DNA from: Myxococcota bacterium
Lineage (GTDB): Bacteria > Myxococcota > XYA12-FULL-58-9 > JABJBS01
DNA length: 64,000 nt
Direction: 5' to 3'
Assembly (NCBI GenBank): GCA_036339465.1
Contig: JAYZAY010000033.1
Span: 51,072 to 115,071, forward strand
Shown piece by piece: positions 36,001 through 48,000 of the stretch. A program made the position numbers. How positions within the stretch are numbered: position 1 is the first letter of the stretch; each line of letters opens with the position of its first letter.

Positions 36001-39000
36001 AATGGAAAGAAGGATTTCGGTGGAGCACAACAAACCACAAACTCAACCTTATCGAGCACCCGTCACCGTTACCAATAGACCTCATTTACGAGAAACGGAG
36101 TTTGAGTACCCCAAAAAAAGCCTCTCCGAAGATACTGCTATTCATCTTAGAAAGGCCCCGCTCACGATCGGGAAAGATAATCGGAAACTCCTCAACAAGC
36201 GCGCCACATCTAGATGCCCTATACTTCATCTCAATCTGGAACAGATATCCACTGGCTTGGATTGAGGAAAAATCTAATTGCTTCAAATAACTCGCCCGAA
36301 ACCCGTTAAAACCACCCGTCAGATCGCGAATACCCACGCCCAAGAGACAACGCGCATAAAAGCTTCCCCCCCAAGAAATCAATCGCCGTTGCCACTCCCA
36401 GTTCTCGACACCACCGCCTTTAACCCGTCGTGACCCCACCACCACATCAGCCTTATGAAGAAGTTGAATCATCGTCGGAAGATATTTTGGGTCGTGGGAA
36501 AAATCCGCATCGAATTCAATAATAAATTCATAACCCCGCTCAAGTGCCCAATCAAACCCCGCCAAATAAGCGCGGCCCAGCCCACTCTTCTCTCTCCGAT
36601 GCAGCACGTGAACCCGCGCATCTTCCTTGGCCAAGTGGTCAGCAGCCTGTCCGGTCCCATCGGGAGAATTGTCGTCGATCACCAAAATATGGACTTGCGG
36701 AACGGCCTTCAATACTGCCGGTACAATGAGATTTATATTCTCTATCTCGTTAAAGGTGGGAATACACACCAGCACCAAACCAGCATCGTCCATGGGAATC
36801 GTCGTCATTCAATGGCTCCTAAACTTAACCATAGCCTTCCTAACAAATGAATTTCCCTCCAACAAGGCACCATGCTTGGATTTTTCTATCACCCAGTCAC
36901 CACATAAACCGCCCTCTTAGCCAGGCCCTAAAAAAGAGTTGGCTGCTCACCTATAAAATACCGAGGATAACCACTTTACTAGATCAGCAAGGCTTCTTGT
37001 CTCAGGATAAGGTCCAAAACGATAACGAATTGCGTTCACCTCTCTAGGTTGCCCTGAGAATAACCTCTCATAAAGTCCATGACTTAGGACCATGTTCAGA
37101 TTCGCCGTTTCCCGTCTTCGGACTTCTTACAAAAATCCAGACTCCATTCCGATGAGCCAGTAAACTTGTCCACATGATATTCACCGGACGCCATCAAATT
37201 ACACCCAATCTCCACCAGCCGATGGCCCAGTTCCGGCAAGAATGGAAAGAGCCGAAATTCCAATCGAAGACGACTTGGATCCGAACAAACTTGTAGGAGG
37301 GTCCCCAAACCAACCCGCAGCGAAGCAATTTGCGCCCCACCACATATTAAACGACCTACTTCAACAATTTGTTCCTCTCGATTTTCTTTCAGATAGTCGA
37401 TCAATAAATCCATATACGTGCCCGACAAATCCCGCAACGAATGAAGATTGGACCATGTCACTCGAAAAACTGTCTGATGAGAGATCGGTAATTCGCGGTC
37501 AAAGAGCTCTAGCTCTCCATCAAAATCAAAGTAGGATTGGCACTGCCCCATCGCCATGGAGTCTTTTTGGCATATCACATAATCACTTTCATAAGGGTGA
37601 ACAACCAGTTCCTGAGTATAATACTGATTCAATCTATAATGGGTTTCATGAATCGCAAAACGATATTTTTCGCTCAGACGAACAAATTCCCGGCGAATCA
37701 AAGGATTGACCGCAATCCCCAAAACCCCACCCGGCTTCAAAAAAGATCTCGCTCGAGCCAAAACAAGTTCGAGGAAAGTCGGCGTCGGCATGGGATCGGT
37801 AAAAACCAGGTCTTGGGTCTCAAATAACTCCTCGGGGGGAGGTGTTCGAAAATCGTAGTATCTGGCCACAAGGTCATCATTGATACACGAAACTGTCTCC
37901 AACAAATTGGGGTCAGCATCCAAAACCGTAACACCTATATTTGAACGCATATTCAGACCCGCACAAAGAAAATCATCATCCCCCAAACATAGCGCCTTTA
38001 TCTCCGAGGGATACTCTTTAAATTCTAATGCGTGCTGGATCCTGGCCACCACAACCGATGGCAAAACAGGGCATTGACCCAGGGAAAAATCGTACCACCG
38101 CCTGGATGAATGAGCTTTGAGCACAGACTCCAACATCGCTTGATACTCTTGTTCATTGTCGGAAATTTCTTTGCGACAAAGAGACGTTAATTCTCTAAGT
38201 AGGTCACACACCACCGAATCATATTTGTGTTCTTCCCTATCCTCTTGAGAAACAACAAGTCCCTGATTTAGAAGTTCACCCACATCTTCATCCAAAACAT
38301 CCTCGCCCTGAACCATTTGTTCAATCACTTGAGTCAAATCGAGAGAAAGCTTATGGACCCTTCTTTCGGGAGTCGTAAGGTCGATGAGCTGGATACCTTC
38401 CTTCGAATAGCTGGCAACCACACCCGTGCGTAACCGAAGCAAACTCACAACAATGCTCCCGCTTTGGATAGCTGCGTTTTTCCTACCCAGTCCGTCCTTA
38501 CCGGTAAGCGGCGGGTATAAAGACCACCAAAGTGGTATAAGAAGGCTAAACATACCAAACGCTCAAGCCCTACCTTCCCTTGGGGGCATAAAAATGAAAG
38601 TCTTGCGGAATTCGTCTTGGGGTCCAATAACATCGTTAAATCCTCCCCCATATCCCCTAACCACGAGATGAGTTCGAAATCGCCCACATCATAGAGACTG
38701 AGTTCTCCGCGCTTACGGTCAAACAATGCCTCTAACACCATAAGAAACGGCGAGGCGCCGACATTCCCCATCTGCTTGCGGTCCAACTCAACGAAGCTCA
38801 TATCAAAACGAAATACTTCGAACTTGGGGTCAGAGGAGAAACGCTCCACCCAATAAAGGGCTTCTCTTATTTGTCTCACTCGAACCAACAATAGGTCAGC
38901 TGATTCATCGAGTGTGGTTCCCTTGGGAGTAACCCAAGATTCAGCATCCTTTGAAGCTCTGACAAGTTCGAGGGTGCCGTTTTGAAAAAGGGAAGAGAGA

Positions 39001-45000: not shown

Positions 45001-48000
45001 CCGTCCCAGCATGCAGCAGCACTCCCCCAAACACACCAGAGACATGATGTCACCAGGCATCACCTCAATAGCTCGGTCGTAGGCTAAAATTGCTTTTTCG
45101 TATTGCTTGCTGGCCTGATTACCAGCCCCCAAAGCACGCCAAGCCGGTCCATATTCATGATCCATCAAGGTGATAAACGCAAAAGCATCGCAGGCGTCGA
45201 GGTATTGACCGGCATTGTAAAGGGATTGGGCAATGTCCTCGATCAAACGAATACCACTGACATCGAATCCAAATATCTCTGCGAAGCTTTGGTCACCGGC
45301 TTTCAGCTGGTCAAGAATTTCTAATTTATGAGCTTCGGTAAGCTCCCCGAAAAACGGAGCTTCCAGGAGAGCTTTCTTAAACTCTTCAGGTAATTGTTTT
45401 TGGGCTGCCATTTTTATGCTCTTTTCCTGATTTTATTGGGAGTCCCCACTAGAGAACTCATTTTAGTGAATCAGCCGTTATCGTTTGGAAATATATTTGA
45501 CCCATCGTCGACATCGCCATCCCCATGATGGGTTCACAGAGAACACAGAGTAGAGTGAATTACAAAAGGTTCTGGATGGGTTTCTTGACGTTTTCGTTGT
45601 AGGTTTTCAGAAACTGAACCAAGAGCTTATAGTTTTGGTTCACCTTATTCTCGAAATCCTCGAAGGAGGTCACAAATCGTTCCCTCTCATTTCGGATCGT
45701 TTCCTGCGCCGTTTCCACATTCTTGATTTCAGACTCGATTTGTTTTTGAGTATAGGGCGGCGGATTGGCGGAATCGGATATTTTCTCGCACTTTGCCGTA
45801 GGTTGGCCATCCTCATAGGTCACCACCGGGGGAGTGTCTCTTTTCACACCACCATCGGAAACAACATCGGGCCGGTCGTTGGACTTTTGGCCCTTCTGTT
45901 TGTTGGAAATCTCCACCATAGATTCCTGTAGCTCTTTCAAGTAATCTCCCAAAGCCTCGGATTTCTTATTTTCTTCCATGATCCGCGCAACGAAATAAGA
46001 CTTGTTGGCATTGTCCTCTTCAATTGCCTGGCGCATGACAAGAAACATGAGGGAATGGATATCCTGGCACCCACTGTTGGCCTGTAAGGCGTTGATTTTC
46101 ATCATACAGTTACTCTGGGTCCTGGCATCTCCGGGATTATTCATATAATTTTGCATGGCCGCAATGGCCTCCGCAAACATGGAATTACCTTCCACAGCCC
46201 TTCGGGTCGTATCCAATCTGTCAGCGTGATAAACCTCTGTGCCAAAAACTTCTTTAAACGCTTTGTCCACAACCTCATCGATGGCGTCTTTGCCGGCAGA
46301 GGGATCAGATACCGTATCCGCTGCGGTGGGATTTGCCGTGTGATCCGTACTGTCCACAGCCACCACGTCACCAGCTTCGTTAAGCCCCATATTGCTGGCA
46401 GCCAAAATCGCCTTTAAGTCGCCCTTCAGCGCTTCTAGCTTTGCAGGATCACCCTGAATCGCCTGGCCTTCGGGGGTCTGCAGATACTGCTCAAGAACCT
46501 GCTGAACATCACTTTCATCACTCTCTACGGTAATATTTTCCTGAACCAAACTATTGAGCTGGGTATTTCCGCATCCACCACCTAAGCCTTGGGAGCTACT
46601 CATTTGTAAACCTCTTTTATTTGAGTGGGTTCGGTACCCATCATGTCATCAAGTATCTGTCGATCAATTTTCTTTGATTCTACACGGTTCCAAGAATACT
46701 TGGCTCTAGAATGTCTACGCGTTCTTTTACTCGCCCCCCCAGAGCGAGTCAATTGAAGCCTAAATCCAACCCCGTTAGCTTCACCTGGTCATCCACAAAC
46801 TCTGCCAAGGTCTGGGTTAAAACCCGAGCAAACTCCGAGTCACCAAACGCCCCAAGACTGAAACTTGAAAAAACTGGTTAAAAACCTCAGAAACAGCATC
46901 CGAGGCTCTCAAGAGATTCTTACCCTTCTCAAAATCCGAAATATACTCGGCAATATTCAATACTTCATCCTCAGGAACCCGCACGATAAGATTTGGATAA
47001 TCAATACTCTCTTCCAACGGAAGCTTCGCGTTGTCGGAAATTAAGATGGGTATCCGCCCAATGGACATGGCCTCGAAGAAACGAAATGAATTCAAGCCTA
47101 TCCCCCGAGGACACAGCACATACCGACTGCCCATCAACCCGTCCCAATAGGTCGATTTTGTCCGCTGACCATGCCACCACTTCACCGCCTTGAATCGGCA
47201 CCTGTATCCGGCCGCCTCCAAGTTCTTCATCCCTCTGGAGAGGGCCTTTCTAACCTCGCCGTAACCCGTAGCCCCTTGAAACACCACGTCCCATTGTGGA
47301 TGGGTGGGTTCGGTGAATTCCCTCGCGTTAACATAGTAGGGCATCGCCAACGCTCGGCTGGATTTTCTAACCGAAGTTTTAAAGACCACACTCTCCCTTA
47401 GGGGGGCGAGCACGTCGGTAAAGTCCCCTACTTGGAAAAAAGCGTGATTTCCCCGCCGAGATGAAAAATAAGTAAAATTTGAGAGCTGACGCCCAAGCTC
47501 CGCCTCCAGTCCAGCCAAATGTGAGCGAGCAACCGAATCCCTACGGTACTTCCGAGGCCAGTCCACCCGCTCCAACAAACCTAGTTTGATCGGAAAAAGA
47601 TATAGCTCCGCCTGCTCAGGCCCTTCGACAAGTTCCAAGGCCCGATCCGCAAATAGATTGGCCGTATCGATGTTCGTCAAGCGACCCACCCCATCGAACC
47701 AAGGCATCAAAGCATCTGCCACGGACTTTAAGACCGATAAATCGGAATAGACGAAGGTTTTCATGGCGAGTTCCTTATAAAACATTTTTGTGCTTAAAGA
47801 CCAAGAAACCTATTTTCCGTGTTGGCATCTAGAAAACCCGGCTGCCACACCTATAATGATCTCTTTAAAATCAGCCATTTACAAAACACAACACCAAAGA
47901 CTTTCAGGCTCCAAGCACCTTCTTTCCACAGATACCGATATTGATAGTGAGGAGAAGACGACAAGAAAACCTATGGTTTCATCAGCATTAAGCCCAAAAC

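What a model noticed while it worked through the whole genome (the two positions that open the first line are those of the whole stretch)
37096..46603. Injectisome translocon operon (LcrH-like chaperone, two-TM and one-TM translocator candidates) confined to this order of [...]
Away from the type III secretion core (C64:39083-50771; SctV on C59), seven co-directional genes g01210-g01204 without family assignment include a TPR protein whose C-terminal half matches the Yersinia translocator chaperone LcrH/SycD, followed by a 391-aa protein with a hydrophobic hairpin and a weak SseC/YopB-family match and a 281-aa protein with one hydrophobic segment, the order chaperone - major translocator - minor translocator of lcrH-yopB-yopD. 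I read this as the pore-forming translocon (plus tip protein and effectors g01206-g01204) of a complete injectisome, so that this lineage, unlike Myxococcus with its needle-less T3SS, injects proteins into target cells, probably eukaryotic on [...]
Evidence so far: g01209 vs Swiss-Prot LcrH: 27% over 139 aa (residues 230-367 of 371 vs the 168-aa chaperone), E 8.7e-9; Pfam TPR_2 3.6e-13. g01208: Pfam SseC E 2.8e-4, 21 bits, below the 30.2 cut-off, residues 194-295; hydrophobic windows at 246, 265, 285. g01207: one hydrophobic window at 172; g01210, g01206, g01205: no family at E 0.05 (one chance-level hit in g01206); g01204: BpsA_C 1e-7. Core genes: SctJ g02321, SctL g02323, SctN g02324 (55% to T3SS ATPase), YscO-like g02325, SctQ g02327, SctR/S/T/U g02329-g02332, needle-family protein g02320 (T3SS_needle_F in the look-up), small TPR proteins g02317, g02334; SctV g01946 48% to LcrD over 695 aa, E 6e-208. 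Six-frame search with g01208 in 201 Myxococcota g [...]
(Added by a program. Inside this text positions count along the whole contig: contig position 51,072 is position 1 of the stretch shown here. "Call 12" and the like, gene names such as g00115 and contig names such as C1 are that model's own, and its searches are not shown. The text may have been shortened before it was handed on; [...] marks where a part breaks off. The agent that wrote the report below was given it as the finding of a first reader that could run no searches.)

Follow-up and report, generated by a model that had tools for sequence, protein, structure and literature searches.

The report
Translocon operon in marine Myxococcota
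An uncultured marine bacterium of the Myxococcota carries a conserved gene set that looks like the pore-forming "translocon" of a type III secretion system, a part that the well-studied relatives of this group are thought to lack.

Summary
g01209 is a tandem of two LcrH/SycD-type modules and passes NCBIfam's curated cut-off (124.9 vs 104.8 bits). g01208 is a divergent SseC/YopB-family major translocator: it scores below Pfam's cut-off itself, but syntenic orthologues pass it, and a family profile finds AopB in the PDB. g01207 has no sequence family. Position, size, one hydrophobic segment, a conserved P-x-L/I-P motif, a predicted complex with the chaperone (0.62 vs 0.00) and language-model neighbours (SctB2/YopD/IpaC) mark it as the minor translocator. 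g01210 is a possible tip protein (LcrV position, size, long helical hairpin, LcrV-like neighbours, no sequence match). The cassette g01210-g01209-g01208-g01207(-g01206) occurs in 20 of 22 genomes of this order. Outside it there are only 4 weak partial hits in 379 other Myxococcota, although 218 of 401 sampled genomes have an SctV over cut-off. Not supported: a complete injectisome (no SctC, SctD or SctW; needle inconclusive), g01205/g01204 as effectors, and eukaryotic targets. SseC-like genes also occur in a few other Myxococcota. This is a new variant of a known kind.

The parts
45560..46603 (-). g01210, 347 aa: candidate hydrophilic translocator or needle-tip protein (SctA-like), in the LcrV position upstream of the chaperone
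   Evidence: Homologues lie directly upstream of the chaperone in 9 of 12 larger loci. The alignment shows two long conserved helices. The AF2 model (pLDDT 61.5) has an N-terminal helical domain plus helices 182-237 and 286-346. ESM Atlas feature neighbours are LcrV clusters at 0.96/0.94/0.94, also EspA and IpaD/SipD. There is no Pfam, NCBIfam or PDB sequence match. hhalign against AcrV gave 0.5%. Fold searches returned only generic coiled coils.
44296..45411 (-). g01209, 371 aa: tandem (two-module) class II T3SS translocator chaperone of the LcrH/SycD type
   Evidence: NCBIfam TIGR02552 scores 124.9 bits against a cut-off of 104.8, in 2 stretches. In the six-frame search each half covers nearly the whole model (70.4 bits for model positions 3-130, 61.8 bits for 4-134). 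The C-terminal half aligns end to end with PcrH, SycD and AcrH. tblastn hits annotated lcrH/acrH genes. The two halves are 27% identical over 71 aa.
42985..44160 (-). g01208, 391 aa: divergent SseC/YopB-family major translocator (SctE), with a coiled coil followed by a two-segment hydrophobic hairpin at 245-316
   Evidence: Pfam SseC scores 21 bits, below the gathering cut-off. The syntenic G010 orthologue scores 36.4 bits over profile positions 26-310. 11 of 13 family members hit SseC at E<=0.01. 17 of 23 exhaustive-search hits list SseC, 7 of them over the cut-off. The family profile's top PDB hit is AopB 3wxx_B at E 8.5e-6. hhalign against P0020 gave 89.7% and against AopB 43.8%.
42067..42912 (-). 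g01207, 281 aa: candidate minor translocator (SctB), with one hydrophobic segment at 170-205 and a conserved P78-x-[L/I]80-P81 motif in the N-terminal region
   Evidence: Homologues follow the g01208 homologue in 9 of 12 larger loci. The motif is invariant or nearly invariant in the alignment. The predicted complex with g01209 scored ipSAE 0.62 against 0.00 for the best control, with the interface at residues 72-86. ESM Atlas neighbours are SctB2, IpaC_SipC and YopD clusters. There is no Pfam, NCBIfam or PDB match. hhalign against AopD gave 2.5%.
39678..42050 (-). g01206, 790 aa (true start probably a little downstream): large hydrophilic protein of unknown function. It is the positional equivalent of 714-857-aa proteins that follow the minor translocator in relatives. 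Candidate secreted substrate.
   Evidence: It has no family and no hydrophobic segment or cysteine. It shows weak similarity (E 7e-5 and 4e-4 in a small database) to G010_714 and G019_857, which form a family with G021_792. Contigs of two runs carry a 1-nt deletion at 42026.
38445..39605 (-). g01205, 386 aa: orphan ORF. Nothing shows that it belongs to the cassette.
   Evidence: It has no family and no BLAST hit at E<=1 among the ORFs of 12 related loci. It is unrelated to the ~365-aa family found at this position in G010, G018 and G021.
37096..38553 (-). g01204, 485 aa: BpsA_C-family (polyamine-synthase-like) protein. It is a recurrent neighbour of the cassette and probably not an effector.
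   Evidence: Pfam BpsA_C scores 31.7 bits against a cut-off of 27. Homologues lie near the cassette in 4 of 12 loci. In G010 the homologue scores 88.1 bits and is co-oriented with an AdoMet_dc gene. G000 lacks that AdoMet_dc.

Best explanation
[quoted passage not shown] It binds a short proline/leucine motif in the groove of a TPR module. This binding is inferred, and a model places the g01207 motif in the N-terminal module. After export through the T3SS, g01208 (SctE, two-segment hairpin) and g01207 (SctB, one segment) insert into a target-cell membrane and form a pore. g01210 is the hydrophilic partner that would scaffold them. Shown: the family membership of the chaperone, the homology of g01208 to the SseC family through its orthologues, the conserved synteny across the order, and the presence of a T3SS export apparatus. 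Inferred: secretion, pore formation, the roles of g01207, g01210 and g01206, and the nature of the target.
For: The chaperone passes the curated LcrH_SycD cut-off with two full-length modules. It aligns with PcrH, SycD and AcrH and with annotated lcrH/acrH genes. For g01208, the profile search of 1.84 billion proteins gave 24 hits. Of the 23 other than the query's own protein, 17 list SseC and 7 pass its cut-off. 11 of 13 order homologues hit SseC, and the G010 orthologue scores 36.4 bits over the whole domain. AopB is the top PDB hit. For synteny, the chaperone homologue lies next to the g01208 homologue in 10 of the 12 larger loci. Each was found in 11 of 12, g01207 in 9 of 12 and g01210 in 9 of 12. 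The family profile is found in 20 of 22 genomes of the order. Order and sizes match acrV-acrH-aopB-aopD. The predicted chaperone-g01207 complex scored ipSAE 0.62 (runs 0.49, 0.66, 0.62) against 0.00 for the best of 3 controls. That mark was reached by 116 of 157 solved complexes and 2 of 215 mismatched pairs. The runs agree in at least 21% of contacts, and the partner's pLDDT is at least 41. The interface is the conserved motif at residues 72-86. A like complex is solved, so the pass may reflect likeness. Language-model neighbours are SctB2/YopD/IpaC for g01207 and LcrV/EspA/IpaD for g01210. The sequence shows directly that the three sequenced cassette proteins without a family (g01210, g01208, g01207) and g01206 start with M-S and polar residues and have no hydrophobic signal peptide. 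The T3SS core genes SctJ, L, N, O, Q, R, S, T, U, V are present.
Against: g01208 itself is below Pfam's cut-off (21 vs 30.2 bits), and the six-frame SseC search does not ring in G000. g01207 and g01210 match no translocator or tip family by HMM, by PDB profile or by hhalign against AopD (2.5%) and AcrV (0.5%). The g01208 model was unusable (pLDDT 44.3). Fold searches with the g01210 model gave only generic coiled coils. No secretin other than PilQ was found in G000, and no SctD or SctW. There is also no clear needle, so how the proteins would cross the outer membrane is unknown. The cassette is not adjacent to T3SS genes.
Confidence: 0.78

Rival explanations
1. The cassette is a true translocon, but it serves a 'needle-less' Myxococcota-type T3SS used against bacterial prey, not an injectisome aimed at eukaryotic cells.
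For: No SctC, SctD or SctW was found, and the needle is inconclusive. The cluster carries a FliO homologue, which a preprint reports as frequent in Myxococcota non-flagellar T3SS (PMC12248157, passages). An SctV over the hrcV cut-off is widespread in the phylum (218 of 401 genomes). In M. xanthus the T3SS* acts in prey lysis (PMC12075869, passages).
Against: Known SseC-family translocons act on eukaryotic membranes (established knowledge). G000 shows no Tad-type secretin of the kind that partners the T3SS* in Myxococcus, because PilQ is its only secretin.
Confidence: 0.35
2. The genes are a T3SS-independent membrane or pore-forming module (a TPR protein plus helical membrane proteins) that resembles a translocon only through composition and coiled coils.
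For: The matches of g01208 centre on an Ala/Gly-rich hydrophobic region that attracts spurious hits, such as poly-Ala chains in the PDB and A-rich partial hits outside the order. g01207 and g01210 have no family. The cassette is unlinked to the T3SS cluster.
Against: The chaperone passes an equivalog model with a curated cut-off. Orthologues match SseC over profile positions 26-310, not only over the hairpin. The four-gene order and the sizes mirror acrV-acrH-aopB-aopD. Every genome of the order has an SctR-type and an SctV gene.
Confidence: 0.07
3. The cassette proteins are substrates of the flagellar export apparatus, because the organism is flagellated.
For: G000 has a flagellar cluster and flagellin genes, yet its assembly holds only one FliP/SctR and one FlhA/SctV.
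Against: LcrH/SycD chaperones and SseC proteins belong to non-flagellar systems. The single SctV passes the hrcV cut-off (835 vs 692 bits). The cassette profile is found in 8 of the 9 genomes of the order that have no FliP over cut-off. C18 ends just past motA, so the flagellar gate genes were probably lost at a contig end.
Confidence: 0.03

Closest known systems
lcrV-lcrH-yopB-yopD of Yersinia and acrV-acrH-aopB-aopD of Aeromonas salmonicida (Ysc-family translocon operons)
   Same: The gene order is the same: tip, chaperone, major translocator, minor translocator. The sizes are close: 361/397/298 aa against 347/391/281 aa. The chaperone's C-terminal half is 26-28% identical to LcrH/AcrH. The g01208 family profile finds AopB.
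   Different: The chaperone is a fusion of two LcrH-type modules (371 aa against 178 aa). There is no LcrG-like gene. The tip and minor-translocator candidates have no detectable sequence similarity to AcrV or AopD. The operon is unlinked to sctV. No SctC, SctD or SctW was found in the genome.
Myxococcus xanthus 'needle-less' T3SS* and the 'Myxo' NF-T3SS group of Abby and Rocha 2012
   Same: Both are in the same phylum. Both have a T3SS cluster with a FliO homologue, and neither has a recognisable secretin, SctD or needle (PMC3459982 and PMC12075869, passages).
   Different: Those systems are described as lacking a translocon. The 2012 paper notes that fast-evolving tip and translocon genes might have been missed. 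Here a translocon-like cassette is present and conserved in 20 of 22 genomes of one order. Whether this T3SS belongs to the 'Myxo' clade was not tested by phylogeny.
Chlamydial scc2-copB-copD operons (recalled from memory, not examined here)
   Same: A class II chaperone is followed by two translocators, in a deep-branching T3SS whose genes are scattered over the genome.
   Different: No comparison was run. The only Chlamydia-related results are the CdsV C-terminal domain among the SctV matches and a CT620/621 cluster among the ESM neighbours of g01210.

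Membership tests
LcrH/SycD class II T3SS chaperone (NCBIfam TIGR02552) | Score over the curated cut-off of the equivalog model | tested here: met
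   124.9 bits against a cut-off of 104.8 for the whole protein, from two stretches. Each module alone is below the cut-off (70.4 and 61.8 bits).
LcrH/SycD class II T3SS chaperone (NCBIfam TIGR02552) | A ~130-residue all-helical TPR module that aligns end to end with solved chaperones | tested here: met
   Residues 234-361 align with PcrH 6-133 (E 1.3e-13), SycD 9-135 (E 1.6e-12) and AcrH 13-141 (E 6.4e-10). The N-terminal half aligns better with generic TPR proteins.
LcrH/SycD class II T3SS chaperone (NCBIfam TIGR02552) | Encoded directly upstream of the translocator genes | tested here: met
   The gap to g01208 is 135 nt. The two homologues are adjacent in 10 of 12 larger loci.
LcrH/SycD class II T3SS chaperone (NCBIfam TIGR02552) | Binds translocators through the concave TPR groove | tested here: inconclusive
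   This rests on an in-silico model only: ipSAE 0.62 against 0.00 for the best of 3 controls, with the g01207 motif at 72-86 in the N-terminal module. It may reflect likeness to solved complexes. Binding of g01208 was not modelled.
SseC/YopB/IpaB major translocator, SctE (Pfam PF04888) | Score over Pfam's gathering cut-off | tested here: inconclusive
   g01208 scores 21 bits against 30.2, so it does not meet the cut-off itself. Syntenic orthologues do: G010 scores 36.4 bits, and 8 genomes of the order are over the cut-off in the six-frame search. 11 of 13 family members hit at E<=0.01.
SseC/YopB/IpaB major translocator, SctE (Pfam PF04888) | A central pair of hydrophobic segments preceded by a coiled coil | tested here: met
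   Hydrophobic windows lie at 245-283 and 285-316. The charged helical stretch at 206-245 and the model helices 206-273 and 293-390 are of low confidence.
SseC/YopB/IpaB major translocator, SctE (Pfam PF04888) | T3SS-dependent secretion and pore formation in a target membrane | not testable with these tools
   This needs experiments.
Minor translocator, SctB (Pfam YopD PF05844, SctB2 PF05802, IpaC_SipC PF09599) | Sequence match to one of the family models or to a known member | tested here: not met
   None of these families hit at E<=1. The PDB profile search gave nothing. hhalign against AopD gave 2.5%. The only lead is ESM Atlas feature neighbours (SctB2 clusters at 0.94, 12 of 30 hits).
Minor translocator, SctB (Pfam YopD PF05844, SctB2 PF05802, IpaC_SipC PF09599) | ~300 aa, one hydrophobic segment, encoded right after SctE | tested here: met
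   It has 281 aa and one hydrophobic segment at 170-205, and lies 72 nt after g01208. This arrangement is conserved in 9 of 12 loci.
Needle-tip / hydrophilic translocator, SctA (LcrV PF04792, IpaD/SipD PF06511, EspA PF03433) | Sequence match to a family model or to a known member | tested here: not met
   There was no hit at E<=1 beyond chance-level rows and no PDB profile hit. hhalign against AcrV gave 0.5%.
Needle-tip / hydrophilic translocator, SctA (LcrV PF04792, IpaD/SipD PF06511, EspA PF03433) | A long antiparallel coiled coil that includes the conserved C-terminal helix, with a globular N-terminal domain | tested here: inconclusive
   The model (pLDDT 61.5) shows helices 182-237 and 286-346 plus a helical N-terminal domain. 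Foldseek gave no match at E<=0.001, with IpaD at rank 36. VIA-align gave only generic coiled coils at Z about 10.9. ESM neighbours are LcrV clusters at 0.96 with 218 shared features.
Complete injectisome (non-flagellar T3SS with needle complex) | Export apparatus and sorting platform: SctJ, L, N, O, Q, R, S, T, U, V | tested here: met
   Several score just under the equivalog cut-offs (SctN 602.1 vs 604.75, SctU 350.1 vs 358), while SctV scores 835 against 692.
Complete injectisome (non-flagellar T3SS with needle complex) | A dedicated outer-membrane secretin, SctC | tested here: not met
   The only secretin in G000 (92.8% complete) is a 1720-aa PilQ in a pilMNOPQ operon. Relatives have further secretins. 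In G010 these lie on another contig than the T3SS cluster.
Complete injectisome (non-flagellar T3SS with needle complex) | Needle subunit SctF | tested here: inconclusive
   PF09392 gives only a 16.4-bit hit on C1. A conserved T3SS-cluster protein (C64:36653-37129) is present in 21 of 22 genomes and has a conserved C-terminus. It gives weak HrpA_pilin hits (3 of 18 members, best E 0.0027) and one T3SS_needle_F hit (1 of 18, E 0.29).
Complete injectisome (non-flagellar T3SS with needle complex) | Inner-ring protein SctD and gatekeeper SctW | tested here: not met
   TIGR02500 gives only N-terminal matches of at most 25.2 bits. PF07201 gives no match at E<=0.1. Divergent forms cannot be excluded.

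The most novel reading that the evidence does not exclude
The Myxococcota-type T3SS, regarded as needle-less and translocon-less, has in this flagellated marine order a genuine translocon. That translocon is served by a fused two-module chaperone that could hold the major and the minor translocator at once, one per TPR module. If the core is of the early-branching 'Myxo' type, contact-dependent translocation would predate the recruitment of a dedicated secretin, or it would work here through an unrecognised outer-membrane route.
Probability: 0.27. Interest if true: 0.85.

Novelty: new variant of a known kind. Interest (0 to 1): 0.68.

Why it matters
Abby and Rocha (2012; PMC3459982, passages read) argued that the earliest non-flagellar T3SS, surviving in Myxococcales, lacked secretin, needle, tip and translocon and was probably not contact-dependent. 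They also warned that tip and translocon genes might have been missed. Work on M. xanthus still describes its T3SS* as lacking these parts (PMC12075869, passages). A conserved translocon cassette in another Myxococcota order makes that question testable: was a translocon ancestral and then lost, or was it acquired later? It also gives a first handle on what these abundant, uncultured marine bacteria do to other cells. The tandem LcrH chaperone is an unusual architecture. It could show how one chaperone serves two translocators. My literature searches found no paper that describes a translocon in Myxococcota. The library does not cover subscription journals.

Tried and rejected
- **g01208 structure:** the AF2 model has pLDDT 44.3 and pTM 0.21, too poor for a fold search.
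- **g01210 fold searches:** Foldseek against the PDB gave no match at E<=0.001. VIA-align wide gave only generic coiled coils at Z about 10.9, with IpaB's N-terminal coiled coil and CT398 among many unrelated rows.
- **PDB sequence and profile searches:** g01208 (2-sequence profile), g01210 and g01207 found nothing meaningful.
- **hhalign against Aeromonas proteins:** AopD gave 2.5% and AcrV 0.5%. AopB gave 43.8% over 26 columns.
- **Word-based homologue search with g01208:** it found only the protein itself and one 80%-identical relative.
- **Promoter and terminator scan of 36800-47000:** the counts were as expected by chance (9 found vs 10.5 expected, 14 found vs 10.3 expected).
- **Expression:** no RNA holder was listed among the sequencing runs, so this says nothing about expression.
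- **Earlier findings of this scan:** the look-up returned nothing.
- **Needle candidate:** the profile of the C64:36653-37129 family found nothing in the PDB and only weak Pfam rows. Its resemblance to the C-terminus of needle proteins is recalled from memory and is not used as evidence.
- **AdoMet decarboxylase partner of g01204:** it was not found in G000 by tblastn with the G010 protein.
- **Considered and rejected:** that the C64 cluster is the flagellar export gate. It has SctJ instead of FliF and a YscO-like protein, while C18 has its own FliF, G, H, I, J.

Full report
**What is there**

Seven minus-strand ORFs fill window 37096-46603 at the coordinates given. The gaps between them are 148, 135, 72, 16 and 72 nt. 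g01205 and g01204 overlap by 109 nt. The window is G000:C33:51072-115071 in a 4.17-Mb assembly of 102 contigs with 48.9% G+C, 92.8% complete.

- TPR_2 at 3.6e-13.
- SseC at 21 bits, below the 30.2 cut-off, over residues 194-295.
- BpsA_C at 1.2e-7.
- No family for g01210, g01206 or g01205.

**The chaperone**

- NCBIfam's equivalog model LcrH_SycD scores 124.9 bits against a curated cut-off of 104.8, in two stretches.
- In a six-frame search of the genome, each half covers nearly the whole 136-position model: 70.4 bits for positions 3-130 and 61.8 bits for positions 4-134.
- A family profile aligns residues 234-361 end to end with solved PcrH, SycD and AcrH, at E 1.3e-13 to 6.4e-10.
- tblastn against plasmids hits annotated lcrH and acrH genes at 26-28% identity over residues 230-367.
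- The two halves are only 27% identical to each other over 71 aa. Both are closer to a stand-alone LcrH-type gene on C30.

So g01209 is an old fusion of two class II chaperone modules. In the 5.8-billion-protein collection this tandem form makes a compact family of 27 clusters at 391 bits or more. Where named, these come from Myxococcota MAGs, with one labelled Clostridia. After them the scores drop to 95 bits for generic TPR proteins.

**The major translocator**

g01208 has a charged helical stretch followed by hydrophobic segments at 245-283 and 285-316. A word-based search found only one close relative. An exhaustive HMMER search of 1.84 billion representatives gave 24 hits at E<=1e-3. Of the 23 other than the query's own protein, 17 list Pfam SseC at E<=0.01 and 7 pass its cut-off, one of them at 96.6 bits.

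Within the order:
- 14 of 22 genomes match g01208 itself.
- 20 of 22 match a profile of the family.
- 11 of 13 aligned members hit SseC, best E 8.5e-11.
- The syntenic G010 orthologue scores 36.4 bits over profile positions 26-310 of 312.

A wider family profile, which includes some of those SseC-positive hits, has AopB (3wxx_B) as its top PDB match at E 8.5e-6. hhalign of the order-only alignment gives 89.7% against the 96.6-bit SseC protein and 43.8% (E 2.4e-4, 26 columns) against A. salmonicida AopB. I read g01208 as a divergent SseC-family member. The link is transitive, and g01208 alone does not meet Pfam's threshold.

**The minor translocator and the tip candidate**

Neither g01207 nor g01210 matches any family, PDB sequence or Aeromonas counterpart. 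Their assignment rests on other grounds.

*Position and size.* An annotated Aeromonas plasmid reads acrV (361 aa), acrH (178), aopB (397), aopD (298). Here the order is g01210 (347), g01209 (371), g01208 (391), g01207 (281).

*Conservation.* In 12 larger loci from relatives, homologues were found as follows:
- g01209 in 11 of 12.
- g01208 in 11 of 12.
- g01207 in 9 of 12.
- g01210 in 9 of 12.

They lie in the same order. The misses are mostly at contig ends, or were recovered with other queries.

*g01207.* It has one hydrophobic segment at 170-205. In an otherwise variable N-terminal region it carries an invariant P78 and P81 and a nearly invariant L/I80. A complex prediction of g01209 with g01207 residues 40-165 gave these results:
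- ipSAE 0.62 (runs 0.49, 0.66, 0.62) against 0.00 for the best of 3 controls.
- That mark was reached by 116 of 157 solved complexes and 2 of 215 mismatched pairs.
- The runs agree in at least 21% of contacts, and the partner's pLDDT is at least 41.
- The interface is g01207 residues 72-86 in the groove of the N-terminal TPR module (residues 51-167).

Chaperone-peptide complexes of this kind are solved, so the pass may reflect likeness. It supports binding and does not show it.

*g01210.* Its AF2 model (pLDDT 61.5) has a helical N-terminal domain and two very long helices, 182-237 and 286-346. These are also the best-conserved parts. Fold searches could not tell this from any other coiled coil.

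*ESM Atlas feature neighbours.*
- For g01207: SctB2 clusters (0.94, 209 shared features, 12 of 30 hits), then IpaC_SipC and YopD.
- For g01210: LcrV clusters (0.96 with 218 features, then 0.94 and 0.94), then EspA and IpaD/SipD.

These are leads. They are not alignments.

*N-termini.* g01210, g01208, g01207 and g01206 begin with M-S and polar residues and have no hydrophobic signal peptide.

**The remaining genes**

- g01206 is weakly related (E 7e-5 and 4e-4 in a small database) to 714-857-aa proteins that follow the minor translocator in G010, G019 and G021. Those proteins are a clear family among themselves. It may be a secreted substrate, and nothing more can be said.
- g01205 has no relative in the loci examined.
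- g01204 is a BpsA_C-family protein. Its homologues lie near the cassette in 4 of 12 loci. In G010 the homologue is on the opposite strand, behind an AdoMet decarboxylase gene. That points to polyamine metabolism and away from an effector role. G000 lacks that decarboxylase, so the role of g01204 here stays open.

**The secretion system**

C64 carries these genes in Ysc-like order:
- a weak SctI-like gene
- SctJ
- a 347-aa gene
- SctL
- SctN
- a YscO-like gene (78 bits)
- a gene with a FliK/HpaP-like domain
- SctQ
- a FliO homologue
- SctR, SctS, SctT and SctU

A FliA-like sigma factor and two small LcrH/SctY-like TPR genes lie beside them.

SctV on C59 scores 835 bits against a cut-off of 692. 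It is closest to a full-length 'Low calcium response protein' chain (681 bits, against 417 for FlhA).

This is not the flagellar gate. C18 has its own MotA, FlgE, FlgD, FliK, FliJ, FliI, FliH, FliG, FliF, FliE and rod genes, and the genome has five flagellin matches. G000 holds only one FliP/SctR and one FlhA/SctV. C18 ends just beyond motA, and 13 of 22 relatives have a FliP over cut-off besides the SctR type. The flagellar gate was therefore probably lost at a contig end.

Not found in G000:
- a secretin other than the 1720-aa PilQ
- SctD
- SctW
- a Pfam needle protein

A conserved T3SS-cluster protein (C64:36653-37129, present in 21 of 22 genomes) has a strongly conserved C-terminus. It gives only weak HrpA_pilin and needle rows. 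Relatives have further secretins, but in G010 they lie on another contig than the T3SS cluster. A complete injectisome is therefore not shown.

**Distribution**

All named records that hold the tandem chaperone are uncultured MAGs labelled Myxococcota, Deltaproteobacteria or Bdellovibrionales. In a sample of 401 genomes of the phylum, which includes one genome flagged unpublished (G195):
- The cassette profile matches 20 of 22 genomes of the order. Among the 379 others it gives only 4 weak partial hits over the Ala-rich region.
- 346 of 401 have an SctV match, and 218 of 401 pass the hrcV cut-off.
- Pfam SseC rings in 12 of the 379 others, two of them over the cut-off. In one of these (G098) a small TPR gene precedes a 202-aa SseC-like gene.

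So translocator-like genes are not wholly confined to this order, although this cassette is.

**Habitat and assembly**

Near-identical contigs from four runs of three studies, labelled marine or seawater metagenome, cover the region. Variation includes in-frame insertions in the g01208 hairpin linker, a 9-nt deletion in g01206, and dense substitutions in the N-terminal part of g01207. This fits fast-evolving coding sequence.

**Literature**

Abby and Rocha 2012 (PMC3459982, passages) state that Myxo systems lack secretin, SctF, LcrV and YopB/YopD. They add that tip and translocon homologues may have been missed. Herrou et al. 2025 (PMC12075869, passages) describe the M. xanthus T3SS* as lacking secretin, needle and translocon. 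A preprint reports that FliO is frequently encoded as part of the non-flagellar T3SS in Myxococcota (PMC12248157, passages). A paper on Bradymonabacteria proposes predation through a needle-less T3SS* (PMC11509652, passages). Four full-text searches found no report of a translocon in Myxococcota.

**Verdict**

This is a real, conserved T3SS translocon-like cassette with an unusual tandem chaperone, in a lineage whose T3SS relatives are regarded as translocon-less. The chaperone and the major translocator are well supported. The minor translocator is moderately supported, and the tip protein is tentative. The claims of a complete injectisome, of effectors g01205 and g01204, and of eukaryotic targets are not supported by what could be tested.

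Noticed in passing
G000:C18:1-17000 (L044); flagellin matches on C11, C16 and C100: This Myxococcota genome has a full flagellar cluster (MotA, FlgE, FlgD, FliK, FliJ, FliI, FliH, FliG, FliF, FliE, rod genes and a sigma-54 activator) and five flagellin matches. The assembly nevertheless holds only one FliP/SctR and one FlhA/SctV. The flagellar gate genes probably lie beyond the end of C18.
   Followed up: partly
L078:18307-19329 (G010) and L002:7635-8678 (G000 C64): The gene after sctJ, in the SctK position, matches FliG_M in G010 (27.3 bits against a cut-off of 25). In G000 it matches FliG_C only weakly (E 0.04). This is a FliG-like protein inside a non-flagellar T3SS cluster.
   Followed up: no
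G000:C64:36653-37129 (L002:3654-4133): A 159-aa protein next to a YscG/SctY-like TPR gene is conserved in the T3SS clusters of 21 of 22 genomes. Its C-terminus is nearly invariant (...SNxMKTKHDTAKxxIxNVR). It is a candidate needle or pilus subunit, but only weak HrpA_pilin and needle rows support this.
   Followed up: partly
G000:C30:59509-59901 (L045:7489-7983, minus strand): A third, stand-alone LcrH/SycD-type chaperone passes the cut-off on its own (116.7 bits). It lies convergent to a 767-aa protein without family and close to PilY1-like and pilin-like genes.
   Followed up: no
window 17541-20174: An 877-aa protein has a Fic/DOC domain (44.9 bits). Fic enzymes are frequent secreted effectors. 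It is followed by an NRPS/PKS set at 20637-28170.
   Followed up: no
window 46817-47785, 33231-34133, 31207-32142: Enzymes of types that are, as far as I recall, typical of eukaryotes flank the cassette: an exostosin GT47 glycosyltransferase, a PLOD-type glycosyltransferase (180.7 bits) and a 2OG-Fe(II) oxygenase.
   Followed up: no
G000:C67:20449-25611 (L046:2450-7612): PilQ is unusually long (1720 aa, with four AMIN-domain stretches). It is the only secretin found in this assembly.
   Followed up: no
window 42026, 43285-43286, 40509, 42158-42411: Contigs from other marine samples show several differences. There is a 1-nt deletion near the 5' end of the g01206 ORF, so its start is probably further downstream. 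There are in-frame insertions of 3 or 12 nt in the g01208 hairpin linker and a 9-nt deletion in g01206. Substitutions are dense in the N-terminal part of g01207.
   Followed up: partly
L071 (G098:C254:42304-45696): A Myxococcota genome outside the order has a small TPR gene (106 aa) followed by a 202-aa SseC-like gene (43.8 bits) and a further 182-aa gene. This looks like a miniature chaperone-translocator set.
   Followed up: partly
L022:11356-12804, L023:7662-9230, L033:2106-3704: Genomes of family f5 carry a second, weaker g01208-like paralogue between the major and the minor translocator genes.
   Followed up: no
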